Below, piece after piece: positions 15,001 to 18,000 of a stretch of 64,000 nt of DNA. The first letter of the stretch is position 1, and the number at the start of each line of letters is the position of its first letter. Position numbers: made by a program. Source of the DNA: Vulcanimicrobiota bacterium (GTDB taxonomy: Bacteria; Vulcanimicrobiota; Vulcanimicrobiia; Vulcanimicrobiales; Vulcanimicrobiaceae); contig OY970223.1 in assembly GCA_963714015.1 (NCBI GenBank), positions 896,001-960,000 on the forward strand, written 5' to 3'.

Positions 15001-18000
15001 TCGATTTTGTAGCGGCGGTTTGTGCCGCGACTCAAAATCTTCTGGTGGAAACCCGCTGCGGCGTTTGTGTCAGAACGGCCACAATGTCCCTGTAAAGAAT
15101 CTGCAACTCGTCCGCGCCCGATACGCCATGCACGTTCGCCGACCATGCATCCAGCGCTTCACGCAGTTCGATCCGGCGCTTTCGCAGCCAACCGCCATTT
15201 TGCGGCGCATTAAACGCCGCTTGCTCTAGGGCCACCAACGCACGCAGCGGAGCGCGCATTTCTTCGATGTCGCCTCGAGCCCGGGTTGCAATAGCACAAC
15301 GCATAGCATCGCACGCGGCCCTGAGAGTTGCATTGTCTAACGGATCAGCCATACTTCCTTATTTTCGCGGGGCCACGCTTTACGCGTTTCAACGCTGCAG
15401 CCATGAACTGCGAATCAGCTGCAGCGATTCGCTGCTTGCAGTATCCCATAAATCCTGGTATCTGCATAGGGTTGACCCCCAGAGGGCCGAGCGGCAAACA
15501 CAACCGGCGGTCGATTATTTCCCGACCAATCAGGATGACGAGGTAAGGTCTGCACGCTCTGAAGGACGCGTTATAAATTCGAGTGCGCTGCGCATGATGG
15601 AATTCCGCGCGGGAACCTTTATTCGATCGGCGAGCCGCAGTACAGCCAGGACCTTAACGCTCCACCACGTGGGATCGAATTCGAACCAGCGCAACCCATG
15701 GCGCGCCGAATACGGAAACGCGTGGTGATTGTTATGCCAGCCTTCTCCCCAGGAAATAAGCGCAACCCACCAGCAGTTGGTTGAGAGGTCGGGCGTTCGA
15801 AACGTACGGTAACCCAACGAGTGGGCCGCGCTGTTGACCAGCCACGTCGCATGATAGCTCACCACCAGGCGGACGAAAACGCCCCAGATCACCCACGACC
15901 ATCCGCCCATAGCGAATAGTGCGCCGGCAAGTGCGAGTTGCAAGGGTCCGTGAATGTATTGCAACGCGCGATAAAACGGTTGCTCGTAGAGATCGGGGGC
16001 AAAACGCCGCAATTCCTCTTGCGTCGGCATTGCATCGTTCTGTTTGTAGAGCCACTGCATATGGGCCCAGCGGAAACCGACGTTACGCCCATGGGGATCG
16101 CCCTGCGCATCGGAATGAACGTGATGTTTGCGATGTGTGGCGACCCAACGAATCGGATCGCCTTGCAGCGCGAGCGTTCCAAAAATCGCGAGCGCATACT
16201 CCAAAGGCTTACGCAGCCGCAATGCACGGTGCGTCAATGCGCGATGATAGCACAGCGTAACGCCCAGGCCGCCTGTGACGTACATCAGCACCGCTGCAGC
16301 AACGAGTGCGCTCCAATGGAACATGCCCGGGATGAATGCGGCGAGCGCCCCAATATGAATCGCGCTCAGACCAACGCTGTTGATCCGAGCGCGAATGCGG
16401 CTATTCACCGTTTAGCGATAGCTGGGACGTGACGCGAAGCAATCGCGGCAGTAAACCGGCTTGTCTCCGCGAGGTTGGAACGGAACTTCCGCGACCCCCC
16501 CGCACTGACTGCACGTTGCCTGGAACATCTCGCGCCGGCCGCCGCCGCCGCCGCTCCCGCCGCCCGTGCGTCCGCCGCCGGAGGCCTTGCGCGCCGCGCG
16601 GCAATCCGCGCAGCGGCTCGGTTTGTTCGTAAAGCCTTTGCTGGCGTAAAATTCTTGTTCGCTTGCGGTGAACGGGAAGGTGCGTCCGCAATCGACGCAG
16701 TTTAGATTTTCATCTGAGTACATGAACGAGTCTCCTAACTCTGTGTAGTGGGTTTGTGGTAATCGGACTCGCCAGTACTGTAACAAAAAGTTGAAACACT
16801 AGTGAGCGCGGCAAATTCATACTGAACGTCTTCGACTCGGCGAAGCCGCTCGGCATCTATTGCTAATTCGGAATTTCTAGAAATATCGGACCAATCTTTC
16901 GCCGGCGCAACTTGTCGATCGCTCGAAAGATTGCGCCCTGAGTGACCAGGAGTATCTCACGAAACTGTGCCCGGTACAACCCTCCCACAACCCCTCGAGC
17001 CCGCAAAGGGTTGCGGCCTGCCGGCCTCCGCATTCCGTAGCCGATCGAGGCAATGTGCTGGAATGCGGTCAGAGTCGAATAGTCGCCACGCCCTGACAGC
17101 TTACTCCGCCTCCGCACACGGCTGCGTCCCAATCGGCTTCGGCCAAGATTGCTTCGATTTCATGCTCGGTCTGTGCGTCAAGAGGCGGATCGAAGCTGAC
17201 GTTCATCGTGCGTCCGTCTTCGCCCACGGTGACGCTCAACGTCACGTGCTGCGAGCCGACTTTCTGCTGCAGCATGGCGACCACGCGCGGATCGAGTACG
17301 GGATCTTGCTGCGCGCCGAGCGGCATCACGCCGCCGCGATCTCCGTTCCCCCCGGCGACGCTGCGAGAACCACCGACGACCGCAGGCTGCGGCGAGGCGG
17401 GTGCATTCTGCTCGGCGGCCGCAATGGGTTTTTGCGGCGTCGTGATTTGCGCGTACAGCGGTGCGGCTTGATGAACTCGACGTTTCGGTGCGGCGGCGTG
17501 CGTTCCGGGAGCGAGCACTTCGTGCTGCGGGACGGCAGGTTTCTTCGTACGCGCGGCGATCTGCGTGCGGACTTTAGCATAGCTGACGATCTTCGCGAGC
17601 TTCGCCGCCTGTGGGAGGGCGTGCGCGGGGGCGCGCTCGACGGGCTGCTGGATTTGCAGGCGAATCAGGTGAGCGAACGTCAGGCTTTCGATTGGCTGCA
17701 ACCCTTGCGATTGCGTGCGAATCCAATTGGGAAGGAAGAATGCCAGAAGCAGGTGCAGCACGATCGACAGTGCGAGCGCACGCCGAAAGAGTCTGCTGGT
17801 TGTTCAAAACGTAGACTGCCATTGCGCTCCGGTTGGGAAACGAATCTACGACCGGAGGCGTGACCAGCACCTGCAAGAAACTGCATCGGAGAAACTTTTG
17901 CGCGACACGAACATCGTTTTGTACCAAGCCGAGTGGTGCCCATACTGCGCCAGGGTCAGAGCCAAATTGACGGACCTTCTCTTAGATTACAAGTGCGTAA

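What a model noticed while it worked through the whole genome (the two positions that open the first line are those of the whole stretch)
16412..16790. No cold-shock domain protein; four zinc-ribbon paralogues with a conserved RBS-clasping leader
The genome has no CspA but four CxxC-x17-CxxC proteins with Gly/Arg linkers (912412, 1658867, 2200701 and an uncalled one at 3045920-3046189). Their leaders share a new element, GCGAGTCG - A/C-rich loop of 18-40 nt - AGGAG(A/T)CTCGT, whose arms pair over the ribosome-binding site; candidate Csp substitutes under translational control.
Evidence so far: PF00313 in 1 of 31 genomes, 10 controls ring (60); zf_Tbcl in 95% of the family versus 13% of bacteria (59); paralogues and leaders (58); 21 distinct leaders from relatives lie before these genes (61, 63) with four invariant pairs in 21 of 21 (65); no Rfam match at E 1 (53).
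(Added by a program. Inside this text positions count along the whole contig: contig position 896,001 is position 1 of the stretch shown here. "Call 12" and the like, gene names such as g00115 and contig names such as C1 are that model's own, and its searches are not shown. The text may have been shortened before it was handed on; [...] marks where a part breaks off. The agent that wrote the report below was given it as the finding of a first reader that could run no searches.)

Follow-up and report, generated by a model that had tools for sequence, protein, structure and literature searches.

The report
Zinc-finger genes with switch-like RNA leaders
A large group of soil bacteria lacks the usual cold-shock protein but carries several copies of a small zinc-finger gene, often beside classic cold-response genes and behind an undescribed RNA leader that may switch translation on and off, so these proteins are testable candidates for a different kind of cold-shock helper.

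Summary
Mostly real; some details are wrong and the locus is richer than reported. The genome (Vulcanimicrobiaceae) has four PF13451+PF23477 genes and no cold-shock domain. Relatives: zinc-finger gene in 61 of 61, stand-alone Csp in 0 of 61. A leader model hits 38 places, all in front of these genes, with no Rfam match. The pairs are not invariant (one G-C, G-U, A-U series). The full leader is about 95 nt and has a second, mutually exclusive helix that forms first in folding simulations and would free the RBS, like cspA mRNA. The window's copy has lost that part and its clasp is weak in silico. The window locus is a helicase–zinc finger–desaturase operon with the DEAD-box helicase deleted; its leader survives as a second unknown two-helix element. 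Helicase–IF1–zinc finger–desaturase operons occur in relatives; 13 of 27 second-type infA genes lie within 1 kb of the gene; zinc finger–CSD fusions exist. A Csp-like role remains an inference: no expression or binding data. The scan earlier noted archaeal relatives beside aIF-1A.

The parts
16412..16723 (-). Gene for a 103-aa protein: two Cys4 treble-clef-type zinc modules (PF13451, PF23477/TIGR04272) joined by a Gly/Arg linker; paralogue A
   Evidence: model pLDDT 83, linker 54-61 under 50
16765..16778 (-). 5' arm of the RBS clasp (GCGAGTC core at 16772-16766)
   Evidence: model R1 hit 16718-16800, 51 bits (this copy was in the training set)
16737..16764 (-). A/C-rich unstructured loop
16716..16736 (-). 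3' arm: Shine-Dalgarno AGGAG (16736-16732), CTCG (16730-16727), start codon and first codons, predicted to pair with the 5' arm
   Evidence: 16S 3' end carries CCTCC
16790..16799 (-). Degenerate copy of the family's 5' UUUCGA motif; both UCGA partners of the open-state helix are lost in this copy
16810..16896 (-). 29-codon remnant of a deleted DEAD-box RNA helicase gene (probable ATT start at 16884; junction about 16806-16818); the frame runs on 49 codons to a TAG overlapping the zinc-finger SD (16735)
   Evidence: (76% identity to the helicase of same-genus G001; 1117 nt missing)
16865..16940 (-). Second unknown RNA element: leader of the DEAD-box helicase gene, with two mutually exclusive helices, one closing the ribosome-binding region
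   Evidence: (58 bits); no Rfam match
16951..16979 (-). Promoter-like site (TTGTAC, 17 nt, GATACT), conserved in G001; inferred, below the scan threshold
   Evidence: not reported
15530..16408 (-). Membrane fatty-acid desaturase gene starting 4 nt after the zinc-finger stop
   Evidence: PF00487 74 bits; desaturase beside 33 of 179 zinc-finger genes
16360..16394 (-). 16-pair hairpin with a weak T tail just after the zinc-finger stop, inside the annotated desaturase start; significance unknown
   Evidence: 3 found versus 2.0 expected by chance

Best explanation
The PF13451+PF23477 proteins of the A/B/C type are small basic zinc-finger RNA-binding proteins. In Vulcanimicrobiaceae they belong to a low-temperature (RNA-overfolding) translation module together with a CshA/RhlE-like DEAD-box helicase, a second-type IF1 and a membrane desaturase, filling the slot that CspA fills elsewhere. 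Their translation is set by a two-state leader. During transcription the 5' GGUUUCGA pairs with the inner UCGRAUCC and leaves the SD free (open). The finished leader is more stable with the arms clasped over SD and start codon (closed). Cold would trap the open form; warmth, or refolding by the protein or the helicase, would close it, giving feedback control. The helicase leader follows the same logic. Shown here: genes, distribution, synteny, both conserved helices, folding preferences in silico. Inferred: RNA binding, cold induction, kinetic trapping, autoregulation. The window's copy is a deletion derivative that keeps only the closing arms and is probably driven from the old helicase promoter and leader.
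For: No stand-alone Csp in 61 genomes but the gene in 61 of 61. In 201 phylum genomes, short CspA of 95 bits or more occurs in only three; two of these are among the four that lack PF13451, and the third has only a partial hit at a contig edge. Neighbours of 179 genes: IF1 27, desaturase 33, helicase 5. Full helicase-infA-zinc finger-desaturase operons in G017 and G027. 13 of 27 second-type infA genes lie within 1 kb of the gene, in four different geometries. Zinc finger-zinc finger-CSD fusions P0028 and P0031. Median pI 8.9, net charge +3 to +7, Gly-rich linker. Closed helix: 91.4% of cells paired, slid controls 28-51%. Open helix: 91.0% paired, 5 double changes, 0 of 500 shuffles reach that; one pair runs U-A 38, A-U 5, G-U 3, with 47 of 56 paired versus 34.6 shuffled. 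Truncated leaders fold open (P>0.5) in 82% of 56, full leaders closed in 75%, open form a median 3.7 kcal/mol above the minimum. Six related copies lost both UCGA partners together. In E. coli cspA mRNA an SD-exposed form arises on transcription in the cold and a closed form at 37 C, and IF1 rises in cold shock (PMC9947658, passages). The RhlE homologue CrhC is cold-specific (PMC3590241, passages).
Against: No expression, binding or genetic data. Covariation is thin and not independent: the three A-U changes lie in one clade; overall covariation scores are weak (63 of 500 and 25 of 500 shuffles); own-partner duplex energy is no better than shuffled (p 0.15); core positions were used as anchors. 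RNAalifold found no structure on the unanchored alignment. Equilibrium folding shows no shift from 5 to 45 C. RBS occlusion exceeds z 1.5 in only 30% of 60 leaders (controls 6% of 70), and is negative for paralogues A, B and C. 127 of 179 genes have none of the three neighbours; D-type 0 of 16 and 0 of 80. The element is absent from two sister families, 0 of 24 genomes. Short divergent CSD proteins coexist with the gene in G118 and G136. A clostridial homologue follows a sigma-70 gene. The fold search gives no functional hint (best Z 3.7). M. mazei homologues were suggested to act in transcription (PMC12704099, passages).
Confidence: 0.5

Rival explanations
1. The protein is a translation-initiation or ribosome accessory factor working with the second-type IF1, not a general RNA chaperone. 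The leader is an autoregulatory operator of the ribosomal-protein type: the protein binds the UCG(A/G) loops and locks the clasp, independent of temperature.
For: The tightest link is to IF1 (13 of 27 second-type infA genes); 19 of 179 genes lie divergent to rpsR; the model hits no other gene; UCG motifs are kept in loops; an earlier unchecked note places archaeal relatives beside aIF-1A.
Against: Does not explain the desaturase link (33 of 179), the CSD fusions or the complementary open helix. The gene is missing in 4 of 201 phylum genomes and in all 14 controls.
Confidence: 0.25
2. The leader is a real translational control, but the signal is not cold (zinc supply, stationary phase or another stress), and the lack of Csp is coincidental.
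For: M. mazei homologues bind zinc and were found under ordinary conditions; the word 'cold' does not occur in that paper's main text. Paralogue C's clade carries the full leader without cold-type neighbours. Unrelated context in Clostridia.
Against: Helicase, IF1 and desaturase together are a cold-response set (desaturase recalled); distribution nearly complementary to CspA.
Confidence: 0.15
3. The conserved motifs are DNA sites or inherited sequence (promoter-proximal palindromes, strong SD), and the pairings are incidental.
For: Low folding z-scores for single leaders; TCGA is a palindrome; core positions hardly vary.
Against: Changes keep pairs through G-U on the sense strand (35 of 59 and 10 of 59); loop length varies from 26 to 63 nt between fixed arms; the outer helix is longer than in all 2000 partner shuffles (3.2 versus 2.4 pairs).
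Confidence: 0.1

Closest known systems
PF13451 zf_Tbcl + PF23477 zf_Tbcl_2 / TIGR04272 CxxC-x17-CxxC proteins
   Same: The protein is a plain member; zinc binding is shown for two M. mazei single-domain homologues (PMC12704099, passages).
   Different: Function is unassigned. The six family identifiers occur in 3 papers of the library (2 listed); only the M. mazei paper concerns this family, and its main text lacks the word 'cold'.
E. coli CspA and the cspA mRNA thermosensor
   Same: Small multicopy genes with long leaders; an SD-exposed form made during transcription versus a closed form (PMC9947658, passages); shared company of IF1 and DEAD-box helicase.
   Different: No OB fold or CSD; no Rfam cspA match; a shorter leader with unrelated sequence; temperature dependence not shown.
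Non-homologous Csp stand-ins: archaeal single TRAM proteins; cyanobacterial Rbp (recalled)
   Same: A lineage without Csp uses another small multicopy RNA-binding protein; TRAMs complement E. coli BX04 (PMC5572242, passages).
   Different: TRAM is OB-like and no thermometer was found in its leaders; here the fold is a zinc finger. A single RRM gene is present in only 13 of 61 relatives.
Plant cold-shock-domain proteins, Lin28, CNBP and retroviral nucleocapsid (all recalled)
   Same: Zinc fingers joined by Gly/Arg linkers acting on RNA; CSD plus zinc-finger fusions.
   Different: Those are CCHC knuckles; these are Cys4 treble-clef-type modules with no detected homology.
Autoregulated DEAD-box helicase leaders (E. 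coli deaD, PMC7430678, search listing only)
   Same: A helicase gene under leader control.
   Different: The roughly 60-nt two-helix element here has no Rfam match and precedes probable ATT/ATC starts.

Membership tests
PF13451/PF23477 (TIGR04272) zinc-finger proteins | Both profiles above curated cut-offs; eight invariant Cys | tested here: met
PF13451/PF23477 (TIGR04272) zinc-finger proteins | Zinc binding | not testable with these tools
   shown only for M. mazei homologues
PF13451/PF23477 (TIGR04272) zinc-finger proteins | Treble-clef fold | tested here: inconclusive
   model has hairpin-plus-helix modules; matches to E7 CR3, ClpG, CsfB and PHD only at Z 2-3.7
CspA / cold-shock domain family | PF00313 OB-fold domain | tested here: not met
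Csp-like RNA chaperones (functional class) | Cold induction | not testable with these tools
Csp-like RNA chaperones (functional class) | RNA binding or melting; rescue of csp mutants | not testable with these tools
   only charge, fusions and synteny
Csp-like RNA chaperones (functional class) | Present where Csp is absent; linked to cold-response genes | tested here: met
   kin are not independent
Any Rfam family, including the cspA thermoregulator | Covariance-model match | tested here: not met
cspA-type kinetic thermoswitch | Two exclusive folds, the open one forming first | tested here: inconclusive
   both helices conserved and order predicted in silico; lost in the window copy; no probing
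Melting RNA thermometer (ROSE/FourU type) | SD helix opens as temperature rises | tested here: not met
   predicted SD pairing flat at 0.64-0.65 from 5 to 45 C (in silico only)

The most novel reading that the evidence does not exclude
CxxC-x17-CxxC treble-clef proteins are a third, non-OB-fold class of cold-shock RNA chaperone that has replaced CspA across almost a whole bacterial phylum (and perhaps works beside aIF-1A in archaea). Together with a DEAD-box helicase they are controlled by paired kinetic RNA switches that read out the cell's RNA-refolding capacity, while helicase and IF1 use ATT/ATC starts as a second layer of control.
Probability: 0.3. Interest if true: 0.9.

Novelty: new variant of a known kind. 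Interest (0 to 1): 0.72.

Why it matters
It gives a specific, cheap test for a widespread zinc-finger family of unknown function and offers an answer to how a soil and cold-desert phylum manages without Csp. It adds two RNA elements not in Rfam, each with two exclusive conserved helices over a ribosome-binding site, that can be probed directly. If confirmed, the cspA switch logic would have arisen again with unrelated protein and RNA parts.

Tried and rejected
RNAalifold on the 62-row alignment gave no pairs because the 3' arms were out of register; pair counts were redone on a 39-row subset that left out the GGAGTCCTCG subtype and the long-insert leaders, and by anchoring in scripts. A kink-turn reading of the inner bulge (consensus recalled) fits the UCGGAUC subtype (18 of 59 cores) but not the others; dropped as a general model. 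tRNA T-loop mimicry was considered and dropped. A shared regulon motif: model R1 finds nothing before helicase or RRM genes. Melting thermometer: no shift in silico. The profile search was contaminated by two CSD fusions in alignment A1, so its CSD-only hits were discarded; P0037, P0038, P0049 and P0009 look like read-through of adjacent genes and are taken as adjacency only. PDB sequence search hit only Gly linkers; Foldseek had no match at E 0.001; the domains were not folded singly. ESM Atlas returned only the same family. No RNA holder was listed. A cross-phylum test failed because the two 'Acidiferrales' genomes fall in the same phylum. Literature searches found nothing on this family in cold or on these leaders; the library lacks most subscription papers and no supplements were read. 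The tree is the quick version with many open forks. No complex prediction was run.

Full report
1. Observation. The ORF at window 16412-16723 (-) encodes 103 aa with PF13451 (residues 4-48) and PF23477/TIGR04272 (64-99). tblastn and the PF13451 search give four copies in the genome, called A (window), B, C and D. PF00313 finds nothing in the genome (89.6% complete), while 10 of 14 controls ring. Record titles place the relatives in Vulcanimicrobiota, family Vulcanimicrobiaceae. Among 61 genomes all carry the gene; four have a CSD hit, all S30AE-CSD fusions. In 201 phylum genomes PF13451 is found in 197 and PF00313 in 24, mostly within long ORFs. Short CspA of 95 bits or more occurs in G063, G067 and G072 only. 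G067 and G072 lack the zinc-finger gene and G063 has a partial hit at a contig edge. That is one or two independent events. G118 and G136 hold both the gene and a short divergent CSD.

2. The leader. From 190 loci I extracted 179 distinct genes; four loci gave none. 77 carry the 5' arm and 64 of these the 3' arm, giving 59 distinct cores. The conserved region starts a few bases after a promoter-like site and spans about 95 nt: a GGUUUCGAAGUCC motif, a spacer, the arm GCGAG-UCGRA-UCC, an A/C-rich loop, then GGAG-CUCGU and the start. Model R1, built from 39 rows, hits 38 places in 27 of 61 genomes (26 of 36 in the family, 0 of 24 in two sister families). By coordinates all 38 abut a zinc-finger start. 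Many hits were training sequences and the model includes five coding bases. Rfam has no match near threshold.

3. Closed state. The clasp pairs in 91.4% of cells versus 28-51% when slid; four double changes (9 of 500 shuffles), covariation score not significant (63 of 500). The fourth core pair runs G-C 46, G-U 10, A-U 3, so the pairs are not invariant, although the A-U rows form one clade. The outer extension is longer than in all 2000 partner shuffles. Against it: RNAalifold found nothing on the raw alignment, and RBS opening cost exceeds shuffled leaders (z above 1.5) in only 30% of 60 leaders versus 6% of 70 control genes, with A, B and C themselves at about -0.9.

4. Open state (new). The 5' GGUUUCGA can instead pair with UCGRAUCC, the segment that otherwise blocks the SD. 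This helix pairs in 91.0% of cells with five double changes (0 of 500 shuffles; slid 9-65%). In 56 anchored leaders one pair is U-A 38, A-U 5, G-U 3 (47 paired versus 34.6 shuffled). Truncated transcripts fold open in 82%, full leaders closed in 75%, and the open form lies 3.7 kcal/mol above the minimum. Four leaders had no anchor and were dropped, two rows were mis-anchored, and duplex energy with the own partner was not better than shuffled (p 0.15). Six related copies, including A and B, have lost both UCGA partners. Equilibrium folding does not shift from 5 to 45 C, so any temperature effect would be kinetic or protein-assisted (inference). E. coli cspA mRNA behaves this way (PMC9947658, passages).

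5. The locus. The desaturase gene starts 4 nt after the stop. In same-genus G001 the orthologous locus reads promoter, RNA element, DEAD-box helicase, zinc finger, desaturase. The window matches it on both sides of a 1117-nt gap and keeps 29 helicase codons at 76% identity. The genome has no intact copy of this helicase; 31 of 36 family genomes do. G017 and G027 have helicase-infA-zinc finger-desaturase; L133 and L134 have helicase-infA-zinc finger. Of 179 genes, 27 have IF1, 33 a desaturase and 5 the helicase within the fetched flanks (1-2.5 kb); 52 have at least one. These fall in at least three parts of a poorly resolved tree and not in paralogue C's clade, the sister families or the D type (0 of 16, and 0 of 80 metagenome loci). 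The family has a second-type infA (27 copies, 94-109 bits); 13 lie within 1 kb of a zinc-finger gene, upstream, downstream, divergent or convergent.

6. Second element. The helicase leader (window 16865-16940) was found before 26 of 30 helicase loci by pattern. Model R2 hits 34 places in 32 of 61 genomes: 32 before a helicase, one at the window's remnant and one before infA. It has two exclusive helices, 96.8% paired, without significant covariation; the RBS-closing helix is favoured by a median 2.9 kcal/mol at 37 C. Both leaders contain UUUCGA. Helicase and second-type infA genes appear to start at ATT, ATC, ATA or TTG (read from sequence).

7. Protein. The model has two small modules and a disordered linker (pLDDT 83, pTM 0.41); fold matches are weak. 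Median pI is 8.9. Two proteins fuse both zinc modules to a canonical CSD; the helicase and RRM 'fusions' are probably read-through. M. mazei has eight single-domain homologues, two shown to bind zinc (PMC12704099, passages). PF23477 rings only in M. acetivorans among 14 controls, one of the four controls without a CSD. An RRM gene, the other obvious stand-in, is in 13 of 61 genomes.

8. Verdict. The RNA elements are real and undescribed in Rfam; translational control is likely (about 0.8) and two-state switching plausible (about 0.6). Membership of the protein in a cold or RNA-folding module is about 0.55, and true Csp-like chaperone activity about 0.35. The protein is not a Csp family member, but it may work like one. 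The window copy is a poor representative of the leader; paralogue C is the one to test. Recalled, not from any call: cyanobacterial Rbp, desaturase cold induction, CNBP/Lin28/plant CSD proteins, infC AUU control, kink-turn consensus.

Noticed in passing
window 16865-16940 (-); L247-L276: A conserved two-helix RNA leader precedes the CshA/RhlE-like DEAD-box helicase across the family (34 model hits in 32 of 61 genomes), with no Rfam match; worth its own study.
   Followed up: yes
G000 C1:2604391-2604700 (-); L002, L003, L117, L126, L133, L138, L162: The second-type infA, the only infA found in this genome, appears to start at ATC/ATT/ATA/TTG, as does the helicase; possible infC-like start-codon control. 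The canonical infA was not found in G000.
   Followed up: partly
window 16735-16884 (-): The helicase remnant stays in frame for 49 codons and stops on the zinc-finger SD, which could couple translation by accident.
   Followed up: partly
L117, L118, L126, L128, L144, L164, L387: Repeated loss of the helicase gene while its leader stays in front of infA or the zinc-finger gene; infA in L118 looks frameshifted.
   Followed up: partly
L027, L055, L079, L092, L094 (family f3); L061, L065 (f2); L163, L170, L185; L037, L108, L113: At least four other conserved leader types precede this gene family; several f2/f3 leaders also pair a 5' pyrimidine tract with the SD (z 2-3.4).
   Followed up: partly
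L392:1502-2739: Tandem array of three zinc-finger genes in distant genome G064.
   Followed up: no
G000 C1:318702-318914 (+): A single stand-alone RRM gene (13 of 61 relatives) with no leader, overlapping the end of the upstream gene.
   Followed up: partly
L031-L034: S30AE/HPF-CSD fusion proteins of 216-226 aa are the only CSD carriers among 61 relatives.
   Followed up: yes
L423:2318-5212; plasmid hits H13-H30: In Clostridia the gene follows a sigma-70 gene, and one-domain copies occur on many plasmids, some annotated 'cytochrome c551'.
   Followed up: partly
window 16360-16394 (-): Long hairpin at the start of the desaturase gene; possible attenuator, or the true start lies downstream.
   Followed up: no
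L125, L147, L165 and 16 more: 19 of 179 zinc-finger genes lie divergent to the rpsR gene.
   Followed up: no
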